A DNA stretch of 64,000 bases from Balanoglossus misakiensis (taxonomy: Eukaryota > Animalia > Hemichordata): NCBI GenBank assembly GCA_040954595.2, contig CM082576.2, forward strand, positions 18,275,028 to 18,339,027, given 5' to 3'. The notes under the pieces were generated by a model. The model saw only the letters and a program-made list of their open reading frames with translations. It was not told the DNA's origin and did no database searches. Position numbers and translations under genes: made by a program. Of this stretch, positions 27,169 through 49,555 are shown piece after piece. How positions within the stretch are numbered: the first letter of the stretch is position 1; every line of letters starts with the position of its first letter.

Positions 27169-27285
27169 AAATATAGCTGCAAGCAGCGATAGCGGGCCCA
27201 AGCCGAAATAGCACATAGGAACATAGCAATAAGCAATAGTGTTTGGTGCTTATTTGTGCGAAATGTAAAGATAGGATGCTATTAA

Positions 27286-30095: not shown

Positions 30096-30238
30096 TCTAT
30101 TAATAATGTTTGATACAAGACAGTGTTCGTATTATTCTACATGTGGATATATAGAGAATCCATATTCAATGACAAACAACTTGCATCGTGTTTGTAGGAT
30201 GTGATAGTGGGAGAAACGCCATGAAATGAGTATGATAA

Positions 30239-31338
30239 CTACTGTGAGTGAAGGGTGAATGATGTGATGACGCGGCTGTGGATGTCATAGGTAATGGAGA
30301 AGTCATGAGTTTCAGTCAGGAAGGTGGATGCTATGTTATCAGAAGTGAAGAGTACGAGTGGGTTTCCTTGTGGTTGGCCGTAATGTTGGGGGTTCAGTGT
30401 AGATATGTATGCTGTAAGTGTGGTTTTGTGAAAGTATAGTTCCAGGTATTCGTCATTGTGTTGTACTGTAATTGAACCGGTGAACTGGATGGGCATGTTT
30501 GTGGTATGTTGGGACGAGTGGCATTTTGTGCATTTTATCAGAGTTGGGAGTGTGTCATTTGGGTATGGTATGGTTTGGTTGCAGTTGTGTTTTATACATG
30601 TCAGGGTTTTTTGGAATGAGCATAGGTGTGGTTTGGTTATCAGGGTGTTTGTGTTTGGGTCAGTGTAGTGAGTGGTGTAGTTTTGCAGTGTTGTGGTTGG
30701 TGTGATTTTTGTGTTTGTGTGTGTGGATAAGTATTTTTGGCCGAGGTAAGATCTAACTGTTACTTCATTGAAACTGTATGATGTGTTAATGAGTAGGCTG
30801 TTGCTGAATGGCCCCCAAGCTGACAAGCGAATGGCTGTGGTGTGATCGGAAATTATGTTGTTTGTCATGGGAAGTGATTTGTGTGTAGATTTTAAGCCAT
30901 ACTGAATGTTGTCCTGTTGTATGATGTGTGCAGTGATGTTGATGTGTTCGTAATCTTTTTTCATGTGGACTGTATTTAGGGGAGTGATGATGTTTGGTTG
31001 CTGACAATAAGGGAATGTGCATGTGTTAATGATTTTTATGGTTGTGTTGATTTGCAGTTTGATCTCGTCTTCGTCAAGTTTGTTAAAGCATGGTTGAAAT
31101 TTTATGTCATAGAGAGTAATGGGTAGTTTCCCTGTAGCTGCAATGTTGAGAGAATCGTAATGTTTTTGTGCTGAAAATGATATGAATCTGATGTATGTAC
31201 TGGTGTTTGTTTGTAGCTGTCCGGTGAGTCTTGTGCCTGTCTGATGCAAGTTGTGGACATACCCAGTGGCTGTTGTTGGTTTGGTTGTTGCAGATGCTGG
31301 ATTGTGGATTTGTAGCATTCTTCGTTTCATGGAAGGAG
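30239..31338 (-). CDS. Terminal exon of an RPA1-like multi-OB-fold ssDNA-binding protein with a C4 zinc motif
   Basis: 363-aa ORF. INITAHII...ISDHTTAIRLSAWG...SYSFNEVTVRSYLGQKYLST resembles an RPA OB-fold (D.TG.I.LTLWG). CIKHNC...KCTKC resembles the RPA70 C-domain zinc finger. A phase-1 acceptor TTCCAG sits 8 nt before the ATG. Confidence 0.75.
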
Positions 31339-32602
31339 CTGGAAATATAGACAGTAATAGTGTGATTGTGTAGTGAATGTTAAGGGTGTGTATTTCAGTT
31401 GCTGAGAATATAGATAAGTGGAAGTTAAAGGGACAAATTCCTCTCTTGCTGCTGTTTCAACATTAATTATGTTTGATACAAAACACTGTTCATGTAATTC
31501 TACAAGTAGATATATAGTGAATTAATGTTTGACCATATACAACTTTTATGGTGCTTGTTGACATATTGAAATGAATAATTATTCTGTACTGTGTATTCAT
31601 AGAGGCGAATTTGTACTGTTGTATGATATAAACGGGGTGGAAGTTGTGTGTTGTTGAACATTGCAGGTTCACTATATCCATATGGAATAACATGAATGGT
31701 GTGTTTGACAAAACATAATTACAGGAAAGGGAGAGACTTTGTTGCTGTAACGGGAACAGTATACACATGATGATTGACAATAAGGGCAACAGTGTATTTT
31801 GATGATTGAGGACGCTGCTAGTCACAACTAAAACAGTCTTGTTTGGAAAACAGACTGTATTGGTGTGACTGGCAGTCCCGAGGTCATCAAAAATACACTG
31901 TTCCCTAAATATGTAAGTCATCATGTGTTTTATAACACACCAAACACGACACACACCACATCCAGGCAACATTACCGGGCAGAAACAGATCGAACTGATG
32001 CCTTAGGGAACAGTGCGAAATGACTAAGGTCATGTGAGAGCATTTTGACGAATTGCAATCGAGGGTTCACTGCATGGTGGTTCACTGCATGGTGTGTTAT
32101 AACATAGTTTGTGTACATAGAGAAATAGATACATACATATGGAATATGTGACTTCATAAATATGCACAGTCAATAAAAGGAAGGAACTTGTGTGCTGATG
32201 TGGACAGAGACACAAGGGATAGTTTTGCAACAACTAAGAGTAGAAACTCTGCACACCACAAATTAGAATAAGCAGGTACTCATTGTTATGTGAAAGTGGC
32301 AACCCTAATCAACATTGCATCACCTATGTGCGTTTAAAAACCATGGCTTCCCCGTTGCATTTTTGACGGGTTAGTCTCCTGATGAGTGACCCCAGTGACT
32401 AGTGAAACAACATTGTAGAGATTATTTACTGCCTATTGTTTTTCAATAACTGTGACTTTTTATTCTGGTCTGGTGAGGTATTGAGCACTTTGTATGAGAC
32501 TAGTTGAACCACATACTGCGTATACAGAAATGCATACAGAAATGTTATCGGTATGATTATGGTAACTTGAGTTTGCGTTAATTGGTTTGAAGTTGTACTC
32601 AC

Positions 32603-32659
32603 CATCTTCTGGTGCTGTACTGGTACTGGGGAACAGTTGTCTTTTTGCTGTTGTAGATG
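32603..32659 (-). CDS. Predicted 57-nt phase-1 exon of the RPA-like gene (STTAKRQLFPSTSTAPED)
   Basis: tttcaacAG acceptor, GTGAGT donor, length divisible by 3, open frame. Confidence 0.65.
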
Positions 32660-33426
32660 CTGTTGAAAGGAATACATGTGTGTTAGGAGCTTCTTAGGAT
32701 TGGGGTGTATACAAGAAACTGTTTAATGGGAATGTGTCATCTGAATTGTGTGATAATAGTAATTGTGGAGGCTGTGTTCTTGTGGCTGTGACTTTGGGAT
32801 GTAAAGGAAAATGGTGTGGCTGCTTTTGGAATGAAAGGTTGCAGTGTGGATTGTAATCTGTAAGCATGTGACACCTAGTATAGTGTAAATCAGTGTGTTA
32901 ACAAATTGGGATGTTGTTCATTGTTGTGGGATATGAAATGGCAGTGGCACATGTTGAGGTGAAGCCTAATTTTAAAGTAGTATAGTTTGGTATTAGATGT
33001 AATTGAATGAAGTGAGATATATACTGAAATCAATGAAGCCGGCAGAGCTGACACTTGCTTGGATTATTTTCCTGATTTTATTTCCTTACTTAAAATGGTT
33101 CATATGTAAGGTAAGTGACAGGATTACAGGAACACCTTTTTGGACACATGACTGAAAGTGTATGTTGCAATTTAAAAATGCTATGTATTGAGGGAGTGCT
33201 GCATCGATGTAGTCAGTGTCTATAAAAAGAGTACATAGCTTTTATGGTATGTGTAACCAAGAGATGATAAACTGATGCAAATAATAGTAGAGATTTTAGA
33301 GGAAAGAGGATATATTTGAAGAATTTTATGGAGGGGAAAATGTGGGAAATTTAGCAGGTGTAAAAGCTTTAAGAGGTCTAAGGAATGTGTGTAGCATGTG
33401 TGGAAATCATATCGAGTGGTACATAC

Positions 33427-33513
33427 CATGTGAAGATGATGGTGGATTGCTGGCTTCAGAGGCTTGTATGGCCATGGTTTGTGTGGTAGTGGGCATTGTT
33501 ACTGGAGTGGAAG
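33427..33513 (-). CDS. Predicted 87-nt phase-1 exon (STPVTMPTTTQTMAIQASEASNPPSSSH)
   Basis: cctcaacAG acceptor, GTATGT donor, open frame. Confidence 0.65.
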
Positions 33514-33737
33514 CTGTTGAGGAAATAGAGACATGTAGAAATTGTTGTCTATGTGGAAGCAATGGTGGATTTTAATGTCGAAAGAAATCTGAAGAGTGTT
33601 GTTGCTTCTTGTTTGTGAAGCTAAGCCAAAACACTCTTTGTGATCATGTGGTAGTATGGAACAAGGGAAATGTTGTTTCAGGGGAATCAGTGCTGAGGAA
33701 TTATTGCATTGTTAAAATGTTATAGAATGGTACTTAC

Positions 33738-33836
33738 CATATGTACACGATGGTGGATTGCTGTCTGCAGTGGCTTGTTTGCCCATGGTTTGTGTGAAAG
33801 GTGGTGATGTAGCTGGCATTCCTATTAGAATGGAAG
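33738..33836 (-). CDS. Predicted 99-nt phase-1 exon (SILIGMPATSPPFTQTMGKQATADSNPPSCTY)
   Basis: cctaaatAG acceptor, GTAAGT donor, open frame. Confidence 0.65.
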
Positions 33837-34474
33837 CTATTTAGGAGAAGAAAATGTTGAATATGTAATGTAGGTAACGTTGATGATGGATAGGAATTTA
33901 AGGAACTTGCAGAGTGCTCAGTTACGGTGTAATATGGTTGAACTGTGAGTGACTTCCATTTTGGGGGTTATTACTTTAGTATGCTTGCTTTGTATGTTAA
34001 CTGTACTTTTTGCAGAGCCATTGTGTACTATTCAGAATTGTTTTAAAATAAATGGAAATATGGACTTCACTTGAGAAGCTCAACACTGCGAACATTTCAT
34101 GAAGTTGTGCAAAGTAGAAGGGAGCGGAGTTGAAGCATAGGCGAATATAATACAGGGGAAAAAGTGTCAAAATCAGGATGACTAGTGGAGTCGAAATGTT
34201 AGTTATGTATTGTAAGGTTGGATGTTGAAAAAGGGAACTGGGGGTGGAAAGGTTAGGACTACATGGAAAGAAAAAGTTATATACACAGCCTTAAAGCTGA
34301 TGTAGCTGTCAAATGTCACATATATTTTCCCGAAGTGAAATAGTTTAAATGTATTGCCTGTGCTGTGAGATTCTTATCATTAAGTGATATAACTTGCATT
34401 TCTATTATTTTGTTATATCTTGGTAATGCATACCGTGATAGCTGATGTCTACTGTTTGTAAGGAGGCTGATTAA

Positions 34475-34820
34475 ACGGACAAAGTCTCTCTCCAGCTGCC
34501 CCTTTTCCATTAATTATGTTTGATACAAGACACGGGTAATGTTAATGTAAATGTTGATATATAGTGAATCAATGATCGACCACACAAAACTTCCATCCCA
34601 CTTGTATGATATGAGAGTAAAACTCGCCCAAAATGAATAAATGGTAAAGAACGATTATTCATTTTGGCGAGTTTTTTCACTCTCCTGTCTACAAGAGGGA
34701 CGGAAGTTGTGTGTGGTTGAACGTTCATTCACTATATATCCACATGTAGAATAACAAATGGTGTCTTGTATCAAATGTAATTAATGGAAAAAAGGGCAGT
34801 GAGAGAGAGACTTTGTCCCT
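34475..34820. mobile_element. Kolobok-like MITE with TTAA target duplication (decayed copies at ~30065-30240 and ~31429-31745)
   Basis: TTAA|ACGGACAAAGTCTCTCTC...GAGAGAGACTTTGTCCCT|TTAA, with ~95-bp imperfect inverted ends. Confidence 0.7.
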
Positions 34821-35023
34821 TTAAATTGGTGTGGCACTGTTTGAATACATAGGATTTCCCAATGACTACATACAGCCACAATTGCATATTTATTAGTGAG
34901 CTTATTTAGATGGAGCAATTGTAGTTGGGAAATAAAATCATGAAAAGTATGGCAAAAAATATCAGCTGTAGAGGTTTTTAGGAGAAGCTGTTGTTGGAAA
35001 TAATAAATATGTATAATACTTAC

Positions 35024-35062
35024 ATGTACTTGGTGTACATGGTAATGTAGGTGGTGGTGTAT
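35024..35062 (-). CDS. Predicted 39-nt phase-1 exon (TPPPTLPCTPST)
   Basis: atttacAG acceptor, GTAAGT donor, open frame. Confidence 0.6.
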
Positions 35063-36234
35063 CTGTAAATTGTAAAGATGAAAGAAGTATTGGGTATTAT
35101 AATAATAGTTAATTTGTCAGGGCTTGCAGTGTACGCAAAGGGCGAAACCAAGTTGCATGAAATTGTATGTGGATTATGTAGAACATACAATAGACAAGGA
35201 GGGTTTCAATTAAGGTGGGATTGCAGGAGAAGTTGTGATTTGGGCAACTGTGAGTTTTGTACATAAATTGGTAGGTCTAATACTGATCCATTTTCGGACA
35301 AATGCGTTTTGGTGGAAATGGTGCATAATCATCGGGAAGTAGCACTTTTCAGAATGAGTCTACAGCTTGAGAAATAGGTGTCAGCAATGCAAATTGTTGC
35401 TGTTCTCAGTTTGCATTTTTGCTACTTTGGACTACTTCAGGAGAATTTAGTTTTTCTGTGCATTGGCCAAATTTGCTGAAATTTTAGCAGGAAATTGTGT
35501 ATGACCCATGTAACAATATGAAAATATTTTTAGTCAATAAAGTGTCACTGGCAGTAATAAACTCTGATTCAATGCAACTCAACGTAAATTTGCTCAAATT
35601 GTCTAAAAATCTAACTTCCAAACATTCCTTCCTTAATGGGAGCAGATAACATCAAACGAAATTTTGGTAATTTTGCATGTGCACTCTAGTTTCGAATCAT
35701 ATATTAAGATGCATGATGCATGGTGAACTTTTTTAGCTGATTTCAAGTGAATGGCATAAGATCAGGAAATGGGTTTTTACCGCAAAAATGCTACCATTTT
35801 GGAGGGTCAATAAAATTTGCAAGTCAAACAAAAGTGTGAGTTTTAACGTTGTCTTTGATGAGGAATAGGCCTCTGGAAAAGTCTTGATGGTTTAGTGCAA
35901 TGCCACCTGAAGTGAGAACATGAATGAGTTCTAGTTCCTGCTGAGGCTTAACTCTAAAAATCACATCAAGGACACGGTGGTCCCATGGAGTGATTACACA
36001 AGAAAAAGTATATGGCCATATACAGACAGACACACACACACACATAGCGAGAGATCAATGGGCAAACACTGACTGACCTATAAGCTGCCAATAGCATATG
36101 TACTTTGCATACACTAAATAGAACAGCTGACCTCTTTTAAACTTAGCCAGTTATGTAATCATTGAGCAATTTGCTGTGTTTATATGAATCACAGGAGGGG
36201 ACTTCCTGCCTAATTGAAAAACTCAATAAAGTAA

Positions 36235-36530
36235 ATACACATTACTTAGCAAAGTAATCTGACCAGTAGTTCTTGAGGGACTGAGTTTTGCCCAAAGTCA
36301 TATTTTTCCAGCTAATTTGCATATTTCTTGCAATGACAACTTCATTTGAACAAACTCCTATCTACAGCCCAGCCTGCATCAGCACACCAAATATCAAGGT
36401 GACACACACAGTGGTTGTCAAGTTTTTGATGTGAATGGACATACAGACAAACATCCAATTATCCATCGATCCATACAGACACAACCGATCCCATAAACTC
36501 CCATGGTACATACCAATGGGACCCAAAAAT
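36235..36530 (-). mobile_element. 5' fragment of the HINE family seen at 17560
   Basis: Reverse-complement similarity to 17560-17860, including the terminal hairpin (CCCATGGTACATACCAATGGGACC) and a decayed microsatellite. Confidence 0.65.
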
Positions 36531-37636
36531 GATTTTTCCAGTTACAGTATCATTTACATTACAGTATCATTATCATTTGTTGAATGAAGTACATAAAGAT
36601 CATGGAAGAGATTGTGTTGCAAGTGGGTTCTTCCCCTCCGTCTCATATGCATGAGCAAGGTAGTGAATTCTAGTGGTGGGGAAATCACCAGGAAGCCCTA
36701 CTTGCTTTGTTATATCAAATGGTTTCTGGGGCATTAATTATAGCACTGACACGTGTGTAGTTTGTCGCATACTTCATAGGTTATTGTGTGTAAATCAGTG
36801 TGTGTCCTGGTACAGCAGACAAATGCACATATGTGTACACGTGTACAGGGTGTCTGATTGACTAATTTTGACAAGGCGGCGAAGTTAGCCTTGCCCATTC
36901 TGTTATTTGTCAAATGATTTTTTTACGTGCATGTCATGCGACTGTTAAATAATAACTGATGATAGCGAGGGGAAGATCACGATTTGAAGGTGGCATGAGG
37001 GATGGTGATGTCTGACCATAATGTTGTTGGCACTAGGACTGCAGGCGAGGGTATCATGAATATATTGGTGTGAGAGCACCAGCGTGAGGGCAAGCTTCAA
37101 ATTGTGAGGTTGCTTGAGCATTACTCAAAAATATAGTATGAGTTGTTCAGCTTAATTTGGGGAAAAATGAGAACAGAACATGTTTGCATACAGTCAAATT
37201 ATTATTGAACAATTAGAAAAGTTGTTTTAGAAAAGGAGATTTTTTGTACAATAAATGAGGGAAATGACAGAAAAAATCCCTGAAAACAGCCATTTTGTGG
37301 TATCATCACAAAATGGGAGAACTGTATAGAACGTATCAATAAAGTGAATACACACAAATTTGCAAAGAAATTTGATTAGTAGTTTTTGAGTTACTGAGTT
37401 TTCTCAAAATTCACATGTTTTTGCTAATTTGCATATTTTTGGTCATAACAACTTAATTTCAGTGAATTGGATTGTAGCCTAGGTAAGTACATATTATAAC
37501 TGTTTGCAAAGAAGTGGGTAGGGACAATGTAATTGGAGTTTGTGATATTTTGCTATTATGGATCGATGGAGATTTTGTATGTGGTGATTAACAGTGTGTA
37601 GGAATTATAGTTGAAACTATATAGAGTGGTACATAC

Positions 37637-37723
37637 CATATGAAGATGATGGTGGATTGCTGGCTTCAGAGGCTTGTATGTCCATGGTTTGTGTGGTAGT
37701 GGGCATTGTTACTGGAGTGGAAG
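37637..37723 (-). CDS. Predicted 87-nt phase-1 exon (duplicate of 33427-33513)
   Basis: Same splice sites as the other copy, two substitutions, open frame. Confidence 0.65.
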
Positions 37724-37947
37724 CTGTTGAGGAAATAGAGACATGTAGAAATTGTTGTCTATGTGGAAGCAATGGTCGATTTTAATGTCGAAAGAAATCT
37801 GAAGAGTGTTGTTGCTTGTTGTTTGTGAAGCTAAGCCAAAACACTCTTTGTGATCATGTGGTAGTATGGAACAAGGGAAATGTTGTTTCAGGGGAATCAG
37901 TGCTGAGGAATTATTGCATTGTTAAAATGTTATAGAATGGTACTTAC

Positions 37948-38046
37948 CATATGTACACGATGGTGGATTGCTGTCTGCAGTGGCTTGTTTGCCCATGGTT
38001 TGTGTGAAAGGTGGTGTTGTCATTGGCATTCCTATTTGAATGGAAG
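37948..38046 (-). CDS. Predicted 99-nt phase-1 exon (duplicate of 33738-33836)
   Basis: cttggcAG acceptor, GTAAGT donor, open frame. Confidence 0.65.
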
Positions 38047-38617
38047 CTGCCAAGAGAATAGAAATTTGTGAAATATGTGGTGTAATGGGAAGTGATGATG
38101 GATTGTAATTTGAAAAGTGTGAAGTGTGTTGGGTTTATTGTCATTTGATCTGTATACATTTTGAATCTAGTACTTTCATTTGGTGATGTTTGGTCAGTAT
38201 TATTGTTTTCTGTATGAAGTGCACTTTGCTTGTGAAATTTAAATCAATGTTCACTATTTTTGAAACAGGCAATTTTCAGAGAAGAGCATTGTGGTTGTTA
38301 AACGAAATAAATTGGAATGTGGAGCCTTTATGAGTAATGTGAACAGAGTAATTGTCTATGGGGGCAAGTCTCAGAGGTTATACATAAACTTTGTGTGTGT
38401 GTGGACACAAGTGACTCAAACGATTAATTCTCTGTGTTTATGAAATGCAAGTAGTGTTAAGAAAACTTGTTGGATTTTTTTCCCCAGTGTAACAGTGGTA
38501 TATGTAATGTAGAACCACATGTGTATATCGATAAGATGTTTACTTAAACCTATGAGGTTCCGGACATTTTATGGTCAATTATGCTGTGTTTGAAATTGTG
38601 GTTATTATAATACTTAC

Positions 38618-38686
38618 TAGGTGTAAAGAATGGAGTAGTTGATGGTAAAGGTGGTGGTGGAGGTAGTTGTGGTGTTCCTGTTAAAT
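38618..38686 (-). CDS. Predicted 69-nt phase-1 exon (LTGTPQLPPPPPLPSTTPFFTP)
   Basis: Pyrimidine tract then gtacAG acceptor (an alternative in-frame acceptor lies 9 nt downstream), GTAAGT donor. Confidence 0.6.
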
Positions 38687-38891
38687 CTGTACGGTCAAAA
38701 AATAGAAATGGTAGAGTAAATTGATTTGAAGTCAACTTGGATTAATCTATATAAGTAAGCTATACTGATATGTATATATTAATGTCTGATGACAATTTGA
38801 ATGTCATGGTTATAGTTGCAATGTGAAAATCTGGTAGATTGGAAAAGTGTTGCAGTGTTGTAATCCCATGGCGAGTACACAAGTATCATGA

Positions 38892-39590
38892 GTGCCTTTC
38901 ACACGTGCCGTCAACGCCGCCCCAGCAGCTGCCCTAGGGCGGCGTTAATTTGTAAGTGCCACGTGTGAAAAGGTGAGAGCGGACCTGCGCCGCTCTTTTT
39001 CTGGGACGGTGTTGAGGGGTGGGACCTGGGTCGGGGCGCCGCACTAAACAGCGATTCAAATCACGTGTGAACAGAAACACCGCACTAAACGCCGATCTAA
39101 ACGCACTCTACCGACGCGGTTTGTCTCATTAAGCGCTGCATTAAGCATTGAGGTTCACTTTACTAAAACAATGGCCGAAGCAGTGTCTCGAGGCAACAAT
39201 TGGAGTGACGCGGAAATGGCCAAGGCACATACACAGGAATTGCAAACTCGACCTCCGACGACGATTTTGTAGCATGGACTGCAGTCTTCCAATCGCAACC
39301 TCCAATGAAAGGTTACCATAAACGGGTATGGGGTCATTCAAATGCCCATGAAATTGGCGTCGACGACGTTTAAAAAGCAAATTCAGGAGTACCATATACA
39401 GTGAACACATCACTGGATCCGCCATTGTGACCTTTTAGCCACGCTGCTGTGGACGCGCGTAGAGGGAGATGACCCCGTCCCTTTTATACACATGTGAATG
39501 CAAAACAATTTGAGTCGTTGATAAGAAATGTTTACCAACTTTTATAATCCCAAAAAGGGCGCCCTAACCATGGCACATGTGCAAGCGGCT
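38892..39590. mobile_element. Probable PIF/Harbinger-derived non-autonomous element
   Basis: GC-rich island with imperfect inverted ends GCCTTTCACACGTGCC / GGCACATGTGCAAGCGGC and repeated CAC(G/A)TGTG motifs. TSD is not clean. Confidence 0.45.
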
Positions 39591-41500
39591 ATGGTCATGA
39601 CAGTTTGAGCAGTGCTTATGTTTTGTGTACACTACAAAATAATCCGTGCTGATTAATCCTCTGGCAACCATGCTATTTGTCACATGCTACCTGGCAGCTC
39701 AAGAAAATGGTGGTAAGTTTCATGCAAATAGGCCTGCACGTACATTGTAGGTAGTTAACAGCATCAGAAAACCTTCCTTGAGGAGGTTATAATTAAAGTG
39801 TGAGTGTCTTGGTCACCACTTGTAGAGAAAGATGTTGGTTGTTTTGGAGAGCAAATGCCAGCCACACTTAGTCATTGTTATGACAATCCCTGTCTACGAA
39901 GAGCATTTGTGCAGAGAGTTTTCCTCATGTTTGAAATTGCTGTGAGAATCTTAAACTGTTTCCTGCAAGAATTCTGTTGGAAGTAGATGACAAATTCATG
40001 CAAATACAGCTAATGTAGCTTAATGCGTTTTATTGTAAAGCATGGGGAGAATATTGAAGCATGTTATCGTTGGTAAAAAATGCAAAATGTGGCAGCTGTA
40101 CAGGTTTAATAAAATGAATAGTGACAATGCGGACATTGAATGGAAAGCGTCATGAGCGCATTGGACTGTACCATTGTCTGCTGCTATAGGTTTGAATGGG
40201 AATTAGGGTTAGGTTTTTGGTCGGAAAAGTTAGCGTTACGGTTAGGTTAGGGTTATTGAGTATGTGTTTAAAATGACTGAAGTGATTGAGTTTTATGAAT
40301 GAAGTCAAGTTTTGGCTGCGAACACCAGTAAATCTATAGCAGTATCTGCTATATTCACTGCAGGTAAACTATATTCAAATGTTAATGCTAACCATGTGTA
40401 GTAGAGAATGCTAGAGTCCTAGGCACATAATGCCGATGCACACTGTGGGTTGACCTTAGTATGAATACATTAGCTAAGTAAGGGTTTACCAAAAAGAAAT
40501 GTTGTTTACTAAATAGGAATAGAATAATTGAAATGAAATACATAGGATAAGGGACCGTTCAGTTTTTACGGCAGGGGGGGGGGGGGCTGGCAAGTTTGTG
40601 TCATCAGTTCTCAAAATCAGGCCGACCCCCCCTTCACCCAGCACAAAAAAATGATGACCCCCCCTTTGACAGACCCAAAAATATGATGACCCCCCCCCCC
40701 CCACGCTGAAAACATTCTCCGTCCTGATCCTATGTATACACTGTATGCAATAAAGGGAATGGGGCTCCTCACCCCTCAATTATAAATTTCTTAAAGTAAT
40801 TGAATTTTTTAATAATATCGTTGCAATAAAGAAATCTATGAACAAAATAAAATGACAAGTCAATACAATAGTTGCTAGAATTGGTAAAACAAGAAAAGTG
40901 GCGTGGGAGGGGGTGTCCCCCTCCCACATAAGAAAATTTTGTAAAATACGGTGCTCAAAGTTGCATTTTAATGAACTCAAAAGCAAATAAAGTCAATGTT
41001 AGGCAGGACGAATTTTGATTTTGCCACTCCACTCAAAGTAAGCATAGGGGTGGGGTGGGAATAAGTCTGCCCTGGTACACTAGACAAACCAGCGGATAAA
41101 TGATATGTTGCATAGAATGTAGGGGGTGGGTGTGGGAGGGGGTGTCCCCCTCCCACATAAGAAAATTTTGTAAAATATGTAGCTCAAAGTTGCATTTTTA
41201 TGAACTCAAAAGCAAATTCATCTCAATGTTTGGGAGGACCAATTTTATTTTTTGCCATTCCACTCAAAGTTAGAAGATTTGGCGTCATCTTCGTCATGAC
41301 ATCATTTATAAAACTTCCAATATATAGAAGATGCAGCACGAAACTATCAGTTATGCAAAATGGTTTAAAAGTTTATTCTCCTTTATGTATTAACTTTGTT
41401 AAATATTATCATCAGTGGGTTTGGGGTTGCAAGCACTCTGCCCTGGTAGAATAGTCAAACCAGCAAAAATCGATATGTTGCAAAGAATGTAGGGGGTGGG

Positions 41501-44500
41501 TGTCATGAATTCAATGCATATTCATAGTTTCGTTTGTCGCACTGCGCTTATGTCATGAATTCAATGCATATTCATAGTTTCGTTTGTCGCACTGCGCTTT
41601 TTTTGACCTGGCGTTTGCGGTCAGTGCGCAGGCGTCCGTGTAATTTTTTTTTTCTCCGTATTAAATTTGGAAGCCCACGTGTATGCGTCCCCGTGTTTTT
41701 TTTTACCCAAGCAGTTGCTGGAAGGAAGGTGGATACGACGCCCAAGTACATGTAAGTTTTGAACATGTCAATGCGTTAGTGAAAGTTGGTAGTGCGAATC
41801 TGAGGGGATATGATGATGGATTTTGATGGTAGCCGCCGTCGTGGATGAATACCGTTCCCTTTGAACCGGCTGTTCGGGAACTCTCTGTTGAGTCGCGGCT
41901 TCTCGTGACACGCAGCTTTGAATGAATATACAAACATCACTGTTTCTTCCCTGTCATTAAAATTATCGAACGTAATTGTCATTGCAAATATTTCACAGAC
42001 GGTATTTTGTCGTTTCGTTAATTACTGACAAAAGATATCAGAGCTTTCTTTTCTGACAATAAAATATCTTGAAGATCCAAAGTGTCTCTTGCTGGCAAGC
42101 AAATTTTCCTCACGCCGTGACATATGGGGGCTCGTCTGGGAGAACGGCAATTTCGTTCTAATAAATCGGCGAGGATATTTGTTTTCTTGGTGGATTTCTG
42201 AACTTGTGAAATCCACAGACGGTATAGTATTTGTAAAACTGAGCATAGTTTATTTTTATTTCCCGTAAATCCTAGTACATGTACATAAAGCAGTGACATA
42301 GAGCTTTCTACTCAGTACGTATTTCGTTTTGTTATAATTGCCTAAAATTGTAAGGCGTATATTGTCGTGACTGATCCCGGTTGATATTTCTTGGACACTG
42401 CACTTCTTGCAGGGTAGTAGACGCACAATAGCATTGTGTGAAACTATCTGGATATCAACTGGCGGGTCCGCTTCCTTGAGTCCAAATTTGTTTAATGAAA
42501 TTGGATAGTTGGTCTACTCGAAAGCTTTTCACTGTTTTATAGGTTGCAATTATATATGTATATCAGTGCTTTGTACTAGTACGCAGTTGACATTTTATTA
42601 GATATGGAAAAGTTTATTGACATTGGATCTGGGCTCGGTTTAACGGGTGAAGCGTTGTTAAATTTTGTCAAGGAGCAGCAGAATATAGAGAGAGAAGAGA
42701 GGCAGAGGGAACGTGAGTTAAAAAGGGCTGAAATTGAAAGAGAGATCGAAGAGAAGAAGATGGCGGCAGATTTAGCTGAAAGAGAGGCACACCGAAAACA
42801 TGATTTAGTTGAAAGAGAAGCGCAAAGGAAACATGAATTAGAAATGAAACGGCTTGAAGCCGGTAGTGTCGAAGGGGGGCGTCATTTTGATGCTGGTTCT
42901 GATTTGGCGAAATCTCCCAAGTTACCCGCTTTTGTTGATGGGAAGGATGAGCTAGATAGTTATTTGCTCCGTTTTGAACGCTTTGCAACTAGTAATAAGT
43001 GGGATAAGCCAAAGTGGGCATCTTTGTTAAGTGCATTGTTAACGGGTAAAGCTTTAGATGTTTATTCTAGACTGTCTGATACGGCAGCACAGAAGTATGA
43101 CGATGTTAAGGATGCTCTGTTGAAGAGATACGAATTAACAGAGGATGGCTATAGAGCCAAGTTTATGAATTTCAAACCCGAACATGGGGAAAGTTGTGAT
43201 CAATGTTTGGTCCGTTTGATGAATTATTTCCATAAGTGGATCGAGTTATCTGGTACTGTGAAAGATTTTGATAATGTATGTGAACTTATAGTCAAACAGC
43301 AGTTTATTGAAACATGCCCAAAGGACTTGGCCGTACATTTGCGTGAAAAGAACCCCAAAACTTTAGATAAAGTTGCAGATATTGCAGATCGTTACCTGCA
43401 GGCTCACGACAGACGTTTAACGTCGCTTGTAAACAATACTGATACAAAGCCTGTAACCAAAAGAGAACGCCGTCCTGCCAGTAGTGGTGGAAGCGGCATT
43501 GAAACCTCCGGTATTCAGTGTTATCGATGCAAGGGGTATGGCCATTTGTCCAAAGATTGTGCAAGTAAAATTGACCATAAAAATGTGTTTGGGGTTAAAT
43601 GCCATAACTGTGGTCGTTTGGGACATAAAGCCCAAACGTGTAGGTTTCAGACTAAGTCGGGTGAGAAACCCACTCCCAAAAGAGTAGGAGCTGCAGTGAC
43701 TAACCTTGATGCGATTCATTCCGTAAGGGGAGAGATGAGCGCCGCCTGTCTTGTAGGGCCAGAGCCTGCAACAAAGGCTGATGTGGAGTCGTGTATAAAA
43801 AATGGCGAACTTCTATTGGCTGGTGGGAAAACGATACCACTAGTTCATACTGCGTGTTTTCAGCCATTAGAAGCGAAAATGCCTACTGTAAAAGGGAAAA
43901 TTGGTAACACTGCTGTAACTGCTCTCAGAGATACTGGTTGCAGTGGTGTTGTTGTCAAGAGGGAATTTGTGAAAGATGACCAATATACAGGTAAATTTTG
44001 TTGTATGCTTATGGTTGACAACACTGCTCGCACAGTGCCTGTTGCTAAAATTCATATTGATACTCCTTATTTGACTGGCGAGGTAGAGGCACAGTGTTTG
44101 CCTGATGCTATTTATGATTTAGTAATTGGTAATGTTCCTGCAGCAAGAGCGCCAGGTGATCCTGATACAAATTGGTCAGGAAAATGCGCTGTAGTTACTA
44201 GGGCTATGGCTAAAAAGAGCGACCAGTGCAAGCCCTTGAAAGTGCCTGCTGGCAGTAAATGTCTTGATGTTTGTAAAGAGAAGTTAATTGAAATGCAACG
44301 CAGTGACTCTGCTCTTGATAAATATTGGTCATTGAATACTCCCGAGGTCAAAGGGGAACGGGAAGTAGTATTTTTGGTAAGGGGTGGTGTGTTGTACAGA
44401 CAATATACTCATCCATATTTAAATCATGGAACACCTGTGAAACAGATAATGGTTCCAAAAGCATTGCGTAATCAAGTTATGTCAGTTGCCCATGATTCTA

Positions 44501-47500
44501 TAACAGGTGGCCATATGGGGATAAAGAAAACCACAGACAGAGTATTGACAAATTTCTATTGGCCGGGTATTCATGGTGACATAACACGTTTTTGTAGATC
44601 TTGTGATATTTGCCAGAGAACCATATCTAAAGGCAAAGTCATTAAAGTTCCCCTTCAGAAAATGCCGTTGATAGATGTACCATTCAAAAGAGTAGCCGTA
44701 GATTTAGTGGGGCCCATACACCCTCCTAGTGAGAGTGGCCATAGATATATACTTACCCTTGTCGACTACGCTACTAGATATCCAGAGGCTGTGCCATTAA
44801 AGCGCATCAGCACTGAGGATGTAGCAGAAGCATTAGTTGACATGTATAGCCGACTTGGTATACCTGAAGAGATTTTACATGATATGGGGACACAATTTGT
44901 ATCAGAATGTGTGCGTGAAGTGTCCCGTTTACTTGGAATCAGGGGAATGTCGACCACACCATATCACCCGATCTGTAATGGTTTGGTCGAAAAATTCAAT
45001 GGTGTTTTAAAGTCGATGCTCAAACGTCTTTGTAGCGAACAGCCAAATCAGTGGCATCGTTACATCAACGCATTATTATTTGCATATAGGGAGGTGCCCC
45101 AAGAGTCAACTGGGTTTGCCCCATTCGAGTTGATGTACGGGAGAACAATTCGTGGGCCGATGCATATTCTTAAACAGCTTTGGACAACAAAAACTGATGA
45201 GACTGAAGTTAGAAATAGTTATCAGTATGTCTTCGAGTTGAGAGAACGTCTTGAACAGACATTGAAAATTGCCCAAGCTGAGTTGTTAAAGTCACAACAG
45301 CGGTATAAACACTATTATGACCGCGGTGCTAAAGTACGAAAATACATGCCAGGGCAGATGGTATTGGTTCTGTTGCCTACTGACAACAATAAATTGCTCA
45401 TGCAGTGGAAGGGCCCTTATAAAATCGATAGTGTTATTGGTACCAATGATTACAAGGTATACGTAAATGGGAAGTACAAGACGTATCATGCCAATTTGTT
45501 GAAAGAGTATATTCATCGAGTTGAATTAGACAGTGATAAAGCAAGTTGCTGTTTACCAGCTTTGAATGTCGCAAGTGCCGCTATAATTGAGTATGAGGAA
45601 GCATGTACTGAAGATGCTGTAGTAGGTGATGACTTGTTGGAGCTTAACACATGTCTGTCAAAGGAAACAGTAGCTGATGTGAAGTTCGGTGATAAACGTA
45701 CCCATGAGGAATTAGAATCTGCTAGGGCATTAGTAAACGAGTTTAGGCACCTATTTACTGATATACCAGGGACTACTAATATAGTCCAGCACCACATTCA
45801 TCTTACATCAGATGAGCCCATATGTTCCAGACCTTACCCAGTCCCATATAAGATAAGAGAATCTTTGAAGAACGACATACAAAGTATGTTAGAAATGGGA
45901 GTGATACGTGAATCTAGATCGCCTTATGCTTCACCAGTAGTAATAGTTCGCAAACGAGATGGCTCGAATCGTATATGTATCGATTATCGCAAACTTAACA
46001 AAGTGACCGTATTCGATCCAGAGCCAATAATGACTTCTAATGACGTACTACACGGCCTTGCTGGCGATAAGTGTTTTACAAAAATCGATCTTAGTAAGGG
46101 GTACTGGCAAGTTCCTGTTGCTGATGGGGATATACCAAAAACAGCGTTTGTTACACCAGATGGAGCGTACGAGTTCCTGAAAATGCCATTTGGTATGATG
46201 AATACAGGTGCGACTTTAGTGCGTGGGATTCGTAAAATGTTGGGTGGGATGGTCCATGTAGTTTTCTATATAGATGACATCCTCGTCCACACACGTACGT
46301 GGGCGGAGCATTTGCGTGTGCTCAGAGAGTTGTTCAAGAGAATGTCCGAAGCAGGATTTACAGCTCGACCATCCAAATGCATTGTGGGAGCTGACAGTAT
46401 TGATTTTATCGGTCACCATATCAGGGAAGGTCACGTGAGTCCATACGAAGACAACGTTGAGAGAGTTAGAAATGCACAACGTCCGAGGACGAAGAAGGAA
46501 GTAAGGTCATTTCTAGGTCTTACAGGTTTCTACAGAGAATACATTCCAAACTATGCAGCAATAGCAGTGCCATTGACAGATTTGACCAAGAAGGGATCGC
46601 CAACTAGAGTTGCATGGGGCGACGCTCAGGAGATGGCATATAAGACGCTTATCCAACGCATAACAACGAAACCGATACTGAAGTTGCCTGACCCTGATAA
46701 GCAGTATGTTCTACGTACGGATGCATCTGATGTTGGTATCGCGGCTGTATTGATGCAGGCACAGGATGGTAAACTGTTCCCCGTGAGTTTTGCCAGCAAG
46801 AAGCTGTCAGAACGTGAGAGGGGATACTCAACTATCGAGAAGGAGTGTCTTGCTATTGTCTGGGCTGTTAGGAAGTATATGATGTATTTGTATGGTACAG
46901 AGTTCGTACTGCAAACTGATCATCAACCGCTCGTGTACGTCGACCGTGCCAAGTTTATCAACGACCGCGTAATAAGATGGGCTATGTTCTTGCAGAACTA
47001 CAGATTCCGAGTTGAATCCATCAAAGGATCGGACAACCATGGTGCGGACTTCTTTAGTAGAGCAGTGTAGAACGATTGACGGTTTTGCTAAACAGCATTT
47101 GGAAATCGAGTTTCACGTTATTGAATTCGCGTTGTAGTAGCAAACTTATAAGTTAGCTTTCAAAAAGGGAGTTATGTCATGAATTCAATGCATATTCATA
47201 GTTTCGTTTGTCGCACTGCGCTTATGTCATGAATTCAATGCATATTCATAGTTTCGTTTGTCGCACTGCGCTTTTTTTGACCTGGCGTTTGCGGTCAGTG
47301 CGCAGGCGTCCGTGTAATTTTTTTTTCTCCGTATTAAATTTGGAAGCCCACGTGTATGCGTCCCCGTGTTTTTTTTTACCCAAGCAGTTGCTGGAAGGAA
47401 GGTGGATACGACGCCCAAGTACATGTAAGTTTTGAACATGTCAATGCGTTAGTGAAAGTTGGTAGTGCGAATCTGAGGGGATATGATGATGGATTTTGAT

Positions 47501-47795
47501 GGTAGCCGCCGTCGTGGATGAATACCGTTCCCTTTGAACCGGCTGTTCGGGAACTCTCTGTTGAGTCGCGGCTTCTCGTGACACGCAGCTTTGAATGAAT
47601 ATACAAACATCACTGTTTCTTCCCTGTCATTAAAATTATCGAACGTAATTGTCATTGCAAATATTTCTCAGACGGTATTTTGTCGTTTCGTTAATTACTG
47701 ACAAAAGATATCAGAGCTTTCTTTTCTGACAATAAAATATCTTGAAGATCCAAAGTGTCTCTTGCTGGCAAGCAAATTTTCCTCGCGCCGTGACA
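41501..47795 (+). mobile_element. Intact Gmr1-like Ty3/Gypsy LTR retrotransposon
   Basis: Near-identical LTRs at 41501-42122 and 47175-47795 (TGTCA...TGACA). 5-bp TSD GTGGG. PBS TGGGGGCTCGTCTGGGA (tRNA-Pro-like). PPT AAAAAGGGAG. Confidence 0.96.
42604..47070 (+). CDS. gag-pol: Gag-Pol polyprotein, order Gag(2xCCHC)-PR-INT-RT-RNaseH
   Basis: CYRCKGYGHLSKDC and CHNCGRLGHKAQTC; ALRDTGCS; HHCC plus DLVGP/HDMG/VEKFN integrase; IDLSKGYWQ and YIDD; RTDASD...EKECLA. Confidence 0.96.
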   Translation: MEKFIDIGSGLGLTGEALLNFVKEQQNIEREERQRERELKRAEIEREIEEKKMAADLAEREAHRKHDLVEREAQRKHELEMKRLEAGSVEGGRHFDAGSDLAKSPKLPAFVDGKDELDSYLLRFERFATSNKWDKPKWASLLSALLTGKALDVYSRLSDTAAQKYDDVKDALLKRYELTEDGYRAKFMNFKPEHGESCDQCLVRLMNYFHKWIELSGTVKDFDNVCELIVKQQFIETCPKDLAVHLREKNPKTLDKVADIADRYLQAHDRRLTSLVNNTDTKPVTKRERRPASSGGSGIETSGIQCYRCKGYGHLSKDCASKIDHKNVFGVKCHNCGRLGHKAQTCRFQTKSGEKPTPKRVGAAVTNLDAIHSVRGEMSAACLVGPEPATKADVESCIKNGELLLAGGKTIPLVHTACFQPLEAKMPTVKGKIGNTAVTALRDTGCSGVVVKREFVKDDQYTGKFCCMLMVDNTARTVPVAKIHIDTPYLTGEVEAQCLPDAIYDLVIGNVPAARAPGDPDTNWSGKCAVVTRAMAKKSDQCKPLKVPAGSKCLDVCKEKLIEMQRSDSALDKYWSLNTPEVKGEREVVFLVRGGVLYRQYTHPYLNHGTPVKQIMVPKALRNQVMSVAHDSITGGHMGIKKTTDRVLTNFYWPGIHGDITRFCRSCDICQRTISKGKVIKVPLQKMPLIDVPFKRVAVDLVGPIHPPSESGHRYILTLVDYATRYPEAVPLKRISTEDVAEALVDMYSRLGIPEEILHDMGTQFVSECVREVSRLLGIRGMSTTPYHPICNGLVEKFNGVLKSMLKRLCSEQPNQWHRYINALLFAYREVPQESTGFAPFELMYGRTIRGPMHILKQLWTTKTDETEVRNSYQYVFELRERLEQTLKIAQAELLKSQQRYKHYYDRGAKVRKYMPGQMVLVLLPTDNNKLLMQWKGPYKIDSVIGTNDYKVYVNGKYKTYHANLLKEYIHRVELDSDKASCCLPALNVASAAIIEYEEACTEDAVVGDDLLELNTCLSKETVADVKFGDKRTHEELESARALVNEFRHLFTDIPGTTNIVQHHIHLTSDEPICSRPYPVPYKIRESLKNDIQSMLEMGVIRESRSPYASPVVIVRKRDGSNRICIDYRKLNKVTVFDPEPIMTSNDVLHGLAGDKCFTKIDLSKGYWQVPVADGDIPKTAFVTPDGAYEFLKMPFGMMNTGATLVRGIRKMLGGMVHVVFYIDDILVHTRTWAEHLRVLRELFKRMSEAGFTARPSKCIVGADSIDFIGHHIREGHVSPYEDNVERVRNAQRPRTKKEVRSFLGLTGFYREYIPNYAAIAVPLTDLTKKGSPTRVAWGDAQEMAYKTLIQRITTKPILKLPDPDKQYVLRTDASDVGIAAVLMQAQDGKLFPVSFASKKLSERERGYSTIEKECLAIVWAVRKYMMYLYGTEFVLQTDHQPLVYVDRAKFINDRVIRWAMFLQNYRFRVESIKGSDNHGADFFSRAV

Positions 47796-48495
47796 GTGGG
47801 TGTGGGAGGGGGTGTCCCCCTCCCACATTAGAAAATTTTGTAAAATAAAGGGCGCGAAACTGCAATTTTGTGGACTCAAAAGCAAAAGTTTGGTGGCAAA
47901 AGTATGTGACCCCCCCTTAAACGTTTAAAAAAAACAGATGACCCCCCTTTTGGACTTCAAAATTCAAGTGACCCCCCCCCCCTGGATTTTGCCGGCCCCC
48001 CCCCGGCCGTAAAAACTGAACGGTCCCTAAGTATGGAAAATAATTGGTAAATATAAGTGTGGTATTATTTCTGTGGGTGTTAAGCGCATTATTGTGTAAG
48101 TGTTGACTGCTGTTTAAAACTTTTTCACTGAAGTCTGGGTGACTTCGAATTTTGGGAAATATTGCAGGATCCAAAGCAGATTTGGAACCTGAGGAAATGT
48201 TCAACAAATGGAACCAATTGTTGAATAACAATGCTTAACAATTACTTTGGTAAAAGAAAGTTGATAGTGAAACACAAATTGTGGTATTGTAGTTTGTATA
48301 ATTTTGCGGAGTCATTGTATTTTTTGAATGCCACTTTCTGTAAAATTTGATTAGTTCGGATGATTGTTTAGGGTGATTCAAGACGTGAGATTAAACAAGG
48401 CAGGCTTAGTTATATATTCATTTTAAGTTTGGGAAGTGTGGGTTTGTTAGACATTTTGAAGAATTCAAGAATACTAATGATATATAAGTACATAC

Positions 48496-48556
48496 CTCTT
48501 GTTTTTCTACGTGATGAAGTCTTGTGGGACGAGTGTGCAGAACCTTTGCTTGCCAT
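48496..48556 (-). CDS. Predicted first coding exon of the RPA-like gene (MASKGSAHSSHKTSSRRKTR)
   Basis: ACAATGG start context, 61 nt, ends in a phase-1 donor AG|GTATGT. Confidence 0.55.
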
Positions 48557-49099
48557 TGTTTTTGCAAATCGTGATTTCAAAACAGAGATTTTCAATGTTA
48601 GAATGTGAAAGTTGCAGGAAATGCGTTCTTGTATAACAAAATTGCTGCGTCATTACCACGATCATGTGATTTTCTTACTCCTTGGGTTGGTCAAGTTTAT
48701 TGTCATATATTTGGAGTGCTGGTGGTTTACACAGGGGGTGAGCTGGGCAGCGCCGACATGAACAGACATAGTATATGATTAAGTGTACGAAGATAGAGGG
48801 TCTGCTATATTGTGGCTGCCTGCTCAGTAATGGGGGCGTAAGTGGAAACAGCGCATAGTAACATTTGAGCTCAACATCAAAGCAACATTTTAGGCGATGT
48901 TCTGTAATGTGTTGATATTATACATATTAGCTGTGATACACACAGTGGCTATTGAAATTTGTGCGGGAAGAGGCTGTTTGCACTTGACGGATCCGAAAAC
49001 GAATGTGATTACGGAAATACGTCTGCAGTAGGGGTCAGCTGATTACTGGTGAGTGGAATCTGTTAACATTTCGAAGTTTTGAAAGTGGTAGTAATCGCC

Positions 49100-49555
49100 T
49101 TATCGGTGATTTTAACGAGTGGAAACCTGGGTGGTGGCGATTGTGTTGTTGTAGTTTATCTAGCGGTAGTGTGATTTTGATGATATGAGAGCCAATGTCA
49201 GTTTAATTTGAGTTATATTTCCACACGTACAGAGGCAAGTCCGATACAATATGGCGGCGACCAAGTGTTTTGCAGAGTTGCTTACGCAATAGACTTACGC
49301 AATAATTTATGCTGACATGTCTGAGTTGTAAAAGTGGTATACTATTAATGTTAATCACTTTATCGGTGATTTGGATGAGTGGATAGGTGGATGGTGACGG
49401 TTGTGTAGTTGTAGTTGATCCGGCGGTAGTGAGATTTTGATGATATAAGACGCGATGTCAGTTTTATTTTCACACGTGAACTAGGTATGTCCAATTCAAT
49501 GTGGCGGCGACCAAGAAGACCATGTATTTCGCAGAATAGCTTACGCAATAATTAA
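49100..49555. promoter_or_regulatory. Candidate bidirectional promoter between the RPA-like and RepHel genes
   Basis: Imperfect duplication offset by ~260 bp, each copy with (A/G)TGGCGGCGACCAAG (YY1-like). TTACGCAAT (bZIP-like) occurs three times. Lies between the two divergent starts. Confidence 0.35.

What the first reader, a model, noticed from the sequence alone, without database searches (positions are those of the whole stretch)
30239..48556. Hidden multi-exon RPA1-like ssDNA-binding gene inside the Helentron, head-to-head with RepHel
Seen: nine minus-strand segments have canonical splice sites, are all phase 1, and the internal ones are multiples of 3 (48556-48496, 38686-38618, 38046-37948, 37723-37637, 35062-35024, 33836-33738, 33513-33427, 32659-32603, 31338-30239). 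They join into a stop-free 1698-nt CDS (565 aa): a basic N-terminus, ~180 aa of S/T/P-rich low complexity, then OB-fold-like domains with a C4 zinc motif. The ORF track captures only the last exon as a full ORF. Known: RPA70-like genes are cargo of plant Helitrons and some animal rolling-circle elements. Inference: this element encodes its own intron-rich SSB with a modular disordered arm, spanning 18 kb and tolerating TE insertions in its introns. A further exon may start at acceptor 48188.
Basis: partly seen in the sequence, partly recalled or inferred. Interest (0 to 1): 0.85.

Follow-up and report, generated by a model that had tools for sequence, protein, structure and literature searches.

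The report
Spliced DNA-binding helper gene in transposon
A rolling-circle transposon carries, facing away from its transposase, nine DNA segments with splice signals that join into one unbroken reading frame, likely a gene for a stand-alone single-strand-DNA-binding protein predicted to coat the element's DNA while it jumps; such helper genes are already known, and only the floppy arm built from small duplicated exons is unusual.

Summary
Observation confirmed. The nine segments have GT-AG ends, all introns are phase 1, and they join into a stop-free 565-aa frame. A blind splice scan finds all 7 internal donors (shuffles: best 4 of 1000), but the exons are partly duplicates, so the evidence is weaker than it looks. 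The last exon folds (pLDDT 93) as three OB folds with a C4 zinc site, like RPA70 DBD-A/B/C. It lacks RPA70's N-terminal OB and C-terminal helix, so it is RPA-like, not an RPA1 orthologue. The gene lies between a Helentron end and an intact OTU-RepHel-endonuclease ORF, and the element interrupts a gypsy pol ORF, so it is cargo. RPA/Ssb-like cargo in Helentrons is published, and this scan noted it before on other DNA. Related elements also splice this gene; one has the same phase-1 micro-exon S/P arm. Head-to-head order is not general (0 of 5 related loci) and probably reflects the known reversed-RepHel variant. No RNA data were available, the arm shows no amino-acid constraint, and tolerance of the 7.5-kb intronic insertion is untested. 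Verdict: new variant of a known kind, interest 0.4.

The parts
48496..48556 (-). Exon 1 (ATG; basic, serine-rich 20 aa); the least testable exon
   Evidence: donor score 5.2
38618..38686 (-). Exon 2 (69 nt, phase 1-1); old paralogue of exon 5
37948..38046 (-). Exon 3 (99 nt); 94.9% identical to exon 6
37637..37723 (-). Exon 4 (87 nt); old paralogue of exon 3, 97.7% identical to exon 7
35024..35062 (-). Exon 5 (39 nt)
33738..33836 (-). Exon 6 (99 nt; possible in-frame alternative acceptor at 33821)
33427..33513 (-). Exon 7 (87 nt)
32603..32659 (-). Exon 8 (57 nt; holds an RxLF motif at aa 187-190); weaker acceptor
30239..31338 (-). Exon 9: OB-A, OB-B and a Zn-ribbon OB-C (C447, C452, C469, C472); has its own in-frame Met at aa 203
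50816..58300 (+). Intact 2494-aa RepHel: OTU, DUF6570, HUH Rep, Pif1 helicase, AP endonuclease
27169..27235 (-). Helentron 3' terminus (GCTGC-TT-GCAGC hairpin, T tail), at the point where a gypsy pol ORF is cut
29015..29194 (.). One degenerate unit of the element's 239-bp satellite, left of the coding core
60202..62948 (.). 239-bp satellite array, unique 5' part and purine-rich microsatellite, right of the coding core; the 5' terminus is not in the window
27283..28985 (+). Nested complete non-autonomous Helentron (HINE-like) with both subterminal repeats
40550..48028 (.). TIR element flanked by TAA (PIF/Harbinger-like, label recalled) in intron 1
41501..47795 (+). Young gypsy-type LTR retrotransposon nested in the TIR element, antisense to the gene; LTRs differ at 3 of 622 positions; GTGGG duplicated
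49092..49550 (.). Twice-repeated 200-bp motif (74% identical) between the two start codons; candidate shared promoter (inferred)
49733..50358 (+). Two candidate RepHel 5' exons (49733-49764, 50333-50358)
62945..64000 (-). Nested same-family non-autonomous copy: terminus 93% identical to 27166-27235, joined directly to satellite

Best explanation
This is likely a genuine nine-exon accessory gene of an animal Helentron, predicted to encode a stand-alone single-stranded-DNA-binding protein that would coat the strand displaced by the element's own Rep-helicase during rolling-circle transposition. Shown in the sequence: splice signals, open frame, position between a Helentron end and an intact RepHel, and conserved aromatic, basic and zinc-ligand residues. 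Predicted: three OB folds in RPA70 DBD-A/B/C order with no C-terminal helix. Inferred: it binds ssDNA without the host's two small RPA subunits. The first 200 residues are likely a disordered linker with basic patches (possible nuclear import) and proline-directed phosphorylation sites. The linker grew by tandem duplication of symmetric phase-1 exons, so exons can be added or skipped without breaking the frame. The two genes are likely transcribed divergently from the 2.3-kb spacer, and the head-to-head order probably arose because RepHel lies reversed relative to the element's ends.
For: Splice and frame tests. AlphaFold2 model, pLDDT 92.7; Foldseek top hits are RPA complexes (9pd4_N E 4e-15, 4gop_C 7e-15). 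VIA: 1fgu_A Z 14.1 (rmsd 7.0, 200 aligned); 4gnx_C Z 13.1 (rmsd 15.6, 316 aligned) over model 17-365; single archaeal SSB domain 7wcg Z 13.3 (rmsd 2.4, 107 aligned). The third domain alone hits the RPA trimerization core first (1l1o_F E 7e-4; VIA Z 7.1-7.5, rmsd 4.4-5.9, middling). The family profile hits Sulfolobus SSB at E 4e-14 and Ustilago RPA70 at 2e-10. Pfam Ssb-like_OB is in 13 of 61 members, REPA_OB_2 in 11, Rep_fac-A_C in 4. The window keeps F254, W374, R395, Y397 and four Cys. 5 of 80 related RepHel loci carry the same family. L040 has two phase-1 micro-exons giving an S/P-rich arm before the core exon, and L003 reads open across two introns. RefSeq homologues are annotated with isoforms in zebrafish, eel, loach, catfish and ribbon worm, some with 100-aa low-complexity arms. 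The element cuts a gypsy pol ORF. Reversed RepHel is published.
Against: Splicing and ssDNA binding were not observed. The arm exons show no amino-acid constraint: 5 of 5 codon changes between recent duplicates are non-synonymous, and exon 3 vs 4 has 12 non-synonymous and 2 synonymous changes among 28 aligned codons. The intron between exons 3 and 4 is about 99% identical to its duplicate, so exon identity there is not selection. The exon-8 peptide does not align with the nearest relative's arm (shuffle P 0.72). Exon 9 has its own Met where a 355-aa ribbon-worm homologue starts. The window copy lacks the family's YF aromatic pair in OB-A (R236, L237). HELIANO calls such genes fragmentary and not essential. 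None of the arm's 9 S/T-P sites has the full CDK consensus. The element's 5' end is outside the window.
Confidence: 0.65

Rival explanations
1. The gene model is right for the family, but this copy is disabled: the recent 7.5-kb nest in intron 1 cuts exon 1 off or adds poison exons, so the insertion is not tolerated.
For: The gypsy is young (3 of 622 LTR differences). 7 of the 13 strongest minus-strand exon-like pairs lie in it, and 6 of those 7 are not multiples of 3 or hold stops in all frames.
Against: The gypsy is antisense to the gene, the orientation usually better tolerated (general knowledge). Exon 9 and RepHel are still fully open. Older TE fragments already sit in several introns.
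Confidence: 0.25
2. Exons 1-8 are spliced but non-coding or rarely used, and the working protein starts at Met203 in exon 9 as a roughly 360-aa SSB like most homologues.
For: Most of the 89 hits are 300-400 aa or shorter. Lineus XP_064637032 starts at the matching position. The arm shows no amino-acid constraint.
Against: All 7 internal exons are multiples of 3 and open in one phase, and old duplicates differ by 12 and 30 nt. The other frames hold 7 and 4 stops. L040 repeats the phase-1 design independently. Many database proteins come from gene callers that cannot splice (inference).
Confidence: 0.15
3. The element is a composite: a RepHel-bearing Helentron landed in reverse inside an SSB-bearing one and lost its inner ends, so the two genes need not be co-regulated partners.
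For: This route to reversed ORFs is proposed for Fusarium (PMC5148889). In related loci the gene lies downstream of RepHel (5 of 5). Same-family copies nest in each other here.
Against: No inner terminus was found between 27235 and 62945 other than the HINE's. The start codons face a duplicated spacer motif 2.3 kb wide. A plain inversion explains the same data.
Confidence: 0.2
4. The protein shields the element's ssDNA from host RPA-dependent damage signalling or deaminases rather than helping strand transfer mechanically.
For: The host has its own RPA, and animal Helitrons typically carry a single RepHel ORF. The element's + strand is G-rich across both genes, as expected if that strand spends time single-stranded (inference).
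Against: No direct test. The nested gypsy also has skew +0.15, so the skew is not specific to the element.
Confidence: 0.15
5. It is a host gene (RPA1 or MEIOB paralogue, or a domesticated copy) that merely neighbours the transposon.
For: RPA70 fold; a MEIOB cluster appears at rank 28 of the Atlas feature search.
Against: It lies inside a Helentron end that cuts a gypsy ORF. It is at most about 30% identical to any long hit, has no Pfam RPA hit, and its family sits beside RepHel elsewhere.
Confidence: 0.03

Closest known systems
Helentron (HLE2) accessory RPA / Ssb-like_OB ORF: mite Helentron-Mo, Nematostella Helentrons (PMC4067079; PMC11417382)
   Same: Separate ORF for an RPA70-like OB protein of about 360 aa inside an endonuclease-bearing rolling-circle element. 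HELIANO reports RPA upstream of RepHel in HLE2 and Ssb-like_OB almost only in HLE2.
   Different: The mite ORF is intronless (358 aa), on the forward strand like RepHel (frames +1 and +3), and is found by CDD. This gene has nine exons, a 200-aa arm, the opposite strand and no Pfam hit. Thomas Table S3 scores the OTU-bearing fish, urchin and lancelet families as RPA-negative, and HELIANO limits RPA to subgroup a while the endonuclease is enriched in subgroup b.
Eukaryotic RPA70 (RPA1) DBD-A/B/C (PDB 1fgu, 4gnx/4gop, 1l1o)
   Same: Three OB folds in the same order, a C4 zinc ribbon in the third, conserved aromatic residues in OB-B.
   Different: No N-terminal OB domain; the model ends in a strand and aligns only up to human residue 599; 10-13% identity.
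Plant Helitron RPA (PHRPA, Mothra; PMC4683698)
   Same: Helitron-borne RPA-like gene beside RepHel.
   Different: HLE1 elements of plants; that paper found no homology between PHRPA and the zebrafish or anemone proteins and proposes independent acquisitions.
Reversed-RepHel Helitron2/Helentrons: Helitron-1_DR, Helitron-2_CRe, Helentron-Da-40, FoHeli4/5; FoHeli3 (PMC3627910, PMC4067079, PMC5148889)
   Same: RepHel opposite to the element's 5'-3' axis; FoHeli3 has an upstream opposite-strand ORF.
   Different: The FoHeli3 ORF has no known domain and no RPA-like gene was found in FoHelis. No divergent SSB gene is described in the passages read.

Membership tests
Helentron / HLE2 | RepHel with HUH Rep and Pif1 helicase; diagnostic FYR and GSP near motif 2 | tested here: met
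   FYRVEFQQRGSPHTH at 1250, YxxxYxxK at 1472, Walker A at 1836; criteria from PMC4067079 section 7
Helentron / HLE2 | C-terminal AP endonuclease; DUF6570; optional OTU | tested here: met
   Pfam PF03372, PF20209, PF02338
Helentron / HLE2 | 3' hairpin with subterminal repeat and T-rich end | tested here: met
   27169-27235 on the minus strand; 93% identical to a second terminus
Helentron / HLE2 | Matching 5' subterminal repeat and insertion in TT without duplication | not testable with these tools
   The 5' end lies beyond a nested copy at 62945 and outside the window; no genome held
Helentron RPA / Ssb-like accessory protein | OB-fold ssDNA-binding protein family | tested here: met
   the window protein itself has no Pfam hit at E 0.01
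Helentron RPA / Ssb-like accessory protein | Family recurs beside RepHel in other elements | tested here: met
   5 of 80 loci, 4 independent (L023 and L024 are near-copies)
Helentron RPA / Ssb-like accessory protein | Same lineage as the published mite or Nematostella proteins | not tested
RPA70 (RPA1) orthologue | Tandem DBD-A and DBD-B OB folds | tested here: met
   1fgu_A Z 14.1, rmsd 7.0, 200 aligned, model 21-227
RPA70 (RPA1) orthologue | DBD-C OB fold with C4 zinc site | tested here: met
   Four Cys nearly invariant; Foldseek top 3 are RPA DBD-C-containing chains, E 7e-4 to 2e-3; VIA Z 7.1-7.5 is only middling
RPA70 (RPA1) orthologue | C-terminal helix for the RPA32/RPA14 bundle (role recalled) | tested here: not met
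   Both models end in a strand; alignment stops at human 599; 38 of 51 family rows end within 9 residues of that strand
RPA70 (RPA1) orthologue | N-terminal OB domain (70N, recalled) | tested here: not met
   Residues 21-199 are 54% S/T/P repeats; the arm was not folded
RPA70 (RPA1) orthologue | Binds ssDNA | not testable with these tools
   Needs biochemistry
Expressed multi-exon gene | Junction reads and conserved splice sites among copies | not testable with these tools
   No genome held; no sequencing run was listed

The most novel reading that the evidence does not exclude
Endonuclease/OTU Helentrons of marine invertebrates and fish commonly encode their own spliced, trimer-independent SSB that domain scans miss. 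Its N-terminal arm is a phosphorylation and cyclin-docking module that grows by exon duplication and ties transposition to the host cell cycle. Family N-termini carry S/T-P-x-K/R at 1.39 vs 0.51 per 100 aa in the core, and RxL(x)F occurs in 5 of 38 and in this arm.
Probability: 0.2. Interest if true: 0.7.

Novelty: new variant of a known kind. Interest (0 to 1): 0.4.

Why it matters
The role of Helitron RPA-like genes in transposition has been proposed but, in the papers read, not tested. This copy gives an intact RepHel and an intact SSB core from one element, a ready pair for that test. It also suggests that surveys calling these genes rare, fragmentary or confined to one subgroup undercount them, because the protein escapes Pfam and the gene is spliced over 18 kb. 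Many 'uncharacterized' RefSeq genes of fish, molluscs, hemichordates and ribbon worms belong to this family and may be transposon cargo.

Tried and rejected
No genome is held, so other copies could not be aligned. No RNA holder was listed; this is no evidence either way, and read laying could not be used. The word-seeded protein search with exon 9 found nothing at E 0.01 among 974 candidates, and the alignment search gave 4. The SSB alignment was too variable for a locus scan. Viral contigs held no RepHel relative. A Helentron terminal motif matched none of 80 loci and the hairpin pattern gave only 4 isolated hits there, so RepHel orientation could not be read from ends in those loci. The extra exon at 48188 was rejected. 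Homology of exon 8 to the Lineus arm was rejected. Purifying selection on the arm was not found. A fold of the SSB with the helicase domain was not run because the queue was full, so binding to RepHel is untested. The tree is a quick search with long branches; it puts the window protein in an 8-row group (SH-aLRT 99) with two Lineus proteins and says nothing on origin. Literature searches for an intron-rich or divergent Helentron SSB listed no such description, but Repbase and the 2003, 2007 and 2015 subscription papers were not seen.
Full report
Observation. The nine segments exist as described: eight GT-AG introns, all phase 1, seven internal exons in multiples of three, and a 565-aa frame with one terminal stop. 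Intron lengths are 9809, 571, 224, 2574, 1187, 224, 767 and 1264 nt. A blind scan for pyrimidine-tract acceptors paired with GT[AG][AT]GT donors found 6 symmetric phase-1-open exons on the minus strand, all annotated ones, against 0 on the plus strand and a shuffle mean of 0.18 (maximum 2 of 300). A looser scan with the TE nest removed found 8 such donors, the 7 annotated and one extra at 32023-31955; shuffles allowed their best phase averaged 1.0, maximum 4 of 1000. A weight-matrix scan (frequencies recalled) listed 13 pairs: the 5 outside the nest are exons 2, 3, 4, 6 and 7, 7 lie in the antisense gypsy and 1 in the TIR element; exons 5 and 8 fell under the acceptor cut-off. The exons are not independent. 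Exons 3, 4, 6 and 7 form one family and 2 and 5 another, and with three families the shuffle P is 0.058. The proposed exon at 48188 has no usable donor. No genome and no sequencing run were available, so splicing is inferred.

The protein core. Exon 9 has no Pfam hit at E 0.01 and only a weak direct match to Sulfolobus SSB (E 0.01). It has 89 relatives at E up to 0.001, the best at about 30% identity. A profile of 61 of these sequences (the query and 60 of the 89, chosen mainly for length and score) hits Sulfolobus SSB at 4e-14 and Ustilago RPA70 at 2e-10. Members match Ssb-like_OB (13 of 61), REPA_OB_2 (11) and Rep_fac-A_C (4). The AlphaFold2 model has pLDDT 92.7. Foldseek ranks RPA complexes first, and VIA aligns model 17-365 to RPA70 191-608 (Z 13.1, rmsd 15.6, 316 aligned). 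The third domain folded alone also finds RPA DBD-C and Teb1 OB-C first, at modest scores. The window keeps F254, W374, R395, Y397 and C447/452/469/472, but has RL where the family has YF in the first OB fold. Both models end in a strand, the match to human RPA70 stops at residue 599, and 38 of 51 family rows end within 9 residues of that strand. The helix that joins RPA70 to RPA32/14 (role recalled) is therefore missing, and so is the N-terminal OB domain. It works like the DNA-binding half of RPA70 but is not an RPA1 orthologue.

The arm. Residues 21-199 are 54% S/T/P with nine S/T-P sites, none with K/R at +3, and one RxLF. The unit of exons 2-3-4 appears duplicated as 5-6-7. Old duplicates differ in length by 12 and 30 nt and keep their splice sites, while flanking introns fall to 44-67% identity. 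Against constraint: the block from exon 3 to exon 4, intron included, is nearly identical to its copy, all 5 codon changes there are non-synonymous, and exon 3 vs 4 shows 12 non-synonymous and 2 synonymous changes. Frame is kept, sequence is not. The arm does not align with that of the nearest annotated relative (P 0.72). Among the 38 of 92 homologues with an intact N-terminus, S/T-P-x-K/R and basic pairs are about three times denser before the first OB fold than in the core; this is a lead only.

Context. The RepHel ORF (50816-58300, 2494 aa) is intact, with OTU, DUF6570, Rep, Pif1 and endonuclease domains and the Helentron-diagnostic motif 2. Its best relatives are from abalone, acorn worm, hagfish and fish at up to 65% identity over the region searched. 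A Helentron 3' end at 27169-27235 sits where a gypsy pol ORF is cut. The element's 239-bp satellite flanks the coding core on both sides, and a nested non-autonomous copy at 62945 joins a 93%-identical end directly to that satellite, as a deletion of the core would. The gene is therefore inside the element; the 5' end is out of view. Intron 1 holds a TIR element with a young intact gypsy inside it.

Relatives. Of 80 metagenome RepHel loci (the best 80 of 146), 5 carry this family, all downstream of RepHel: L003, L040, L023 and L024 on the same strand, L019 convergent. None has it upstream, but only 6 of 80 hold 5 kb upstream of the match, and the window's core exon is 19.5 kb away, so the test is weak. 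L040 has two small phase-1 exons encoding an S/P-rich arm ahead of the core exon, which is broken in that copy; L003 reads open across two introns inside the core. RefSeq lists isoforms for homologues in zebrafish, eel, loach, catfish and Lineus; I saw proteins only, not exon maps or neighbourhoods. In the window the + strand is G-rich over both genes (four-fold GC skew +0.18 for RepHel sense, -0.59 for SSB sense), whereas in L003 and L040 both genes lie on the C-rich strand. That fits a reversed RepHel, as does the position of the 3' end. L019 and L023/L024 do not fit this pattern, and the nested gypsy is also skewed (+0.15).

Mechanism. Most likely (0.65) the element makes its own monomeric or self-associating SSB, which coats the strand displaced by RepHel, with a flexible regulatory arm and a shared divergent promoter. 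Fold is predicted; binding, expression, independence from RPA32/14 and the promoter are inferred. Rivals: this copy is disabled by the intron-1 nest (0.25), the element is a composite (0.2), translation starts at Met203 (0.15), the protein is a shield against host signalling (0.15), or it is a host gene (0.03). These are not all exclusive.

What is known. PMC4067079 (passages, section 7, a supplement search and Table S3) describes an intronless 358-aa RPA ORF in a mite Helentron and lists RPA with OTU in Nematostella, but none in the OTU-bearing fish, urchin and lancelet families. PMC11417382 (passages, sections 4, 22, 23 and a supplement search; figures not seen) reports RPA upstream of RepHel in HLE2, limited to subgroup a, and Ssb-like_OB almost only in HLE2. 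PMC4683698 (passages) mentions highly divergent RPA homologues in zebrafish and anemone Helitrons. PMC3627910 and PMC5148889 (passages) describe reversed RepHel ORFs. [quoted passage not shown] Eight searches listed no description of a micro-exon arm or a divergent SSB-RepHel pair. Repbase entries, the 2003, 2007 and 2015 papers and bioRxiv supplements were not seen and may hold spliced models. Earlier notes of this scan record RPA-like Helentron genes in four other genomes and self-nesting Helentrons in this one; these are unchecked leads.

Verdict. A real and well-read gene structure, in a known class of transposon cargo. The new elements are the exon-duplicated arm, the 18-kb span, the divergent layout and the sign that such genes are undercounted. 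New variant of a known kind, interest 0.4.

Noticed in passing
window 29000-59000: The + strand is G-rich across the whole element regardless of gene direction, while the window left of 22000 has no skew; possibly a mark of one strand being single-stranded during rolling-circle copying.
   Followed up: partly
window 62945-64000 and 27283-28985: Non-autonomous copies nested inside the autonomous element, one at the microsatellite near its 5' part; resembles the self-targeting noted elsewhere in this genome.
   Followed up: partly
window 49733-49764, 50333-50358: Candidate 5' exons of RepHel; the second ends in ATG and would splice in frame onto the ORF's ATG.
   Followed up: partly
window 49092-49550: Duplicated 200-bp motif, each copy with a TGGCGGCG core resembling a YY1 site (label recalled), between the two start codons.
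   Followed up: no
L040 5668-5754: The first exon of the SSB gene has its acceptor 29 nt after the RepHel stop codon, so the two genes may share one promoter through alternative splicing in tandem elements.
   Followed up: partly
L023 4285-5148 (and L024): The RepHel frame continues past the endonuclease into a Ulp1-like protease domain (Pfam Peptidase_C48, E 6e-6), followed by an intron-containing SSB gene.
   Followed up: partly
window 29381-30095: A 241-bp tandem array lies in the presumed 3' UTR; the first polyadenylation-like hexamers are at about 29346 and 29221.
   Followed up: partly
window 30062-30208, 31422-31731, 34471-34824: An old palindromic MITE-like family (70-80% identical copies) in the 3' region and in introns 8 and 5.
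   Followed up: no
window 22271-27170: Gypsy-type element with largely open gag and pol frames, cut by the Helentron near the integrase C-terminus.
   Followed up: partly
window 58990-59400: By eye, a decayed DDE-transposase-like fragment downstream of RepHel; not tested.
   Followed up: no
window 1868-6778 and 16374-17498: A broken L1-like LINE (ORF1 and ORF2 pieces) and a pogo-like DDE_1 transposase fragment, unrelated to the finding.
   Followed up: no
P0236 (eel XP_035263300): A homologue with a duplicated first OB fold and several annotated isoforms.
   Followed up: no
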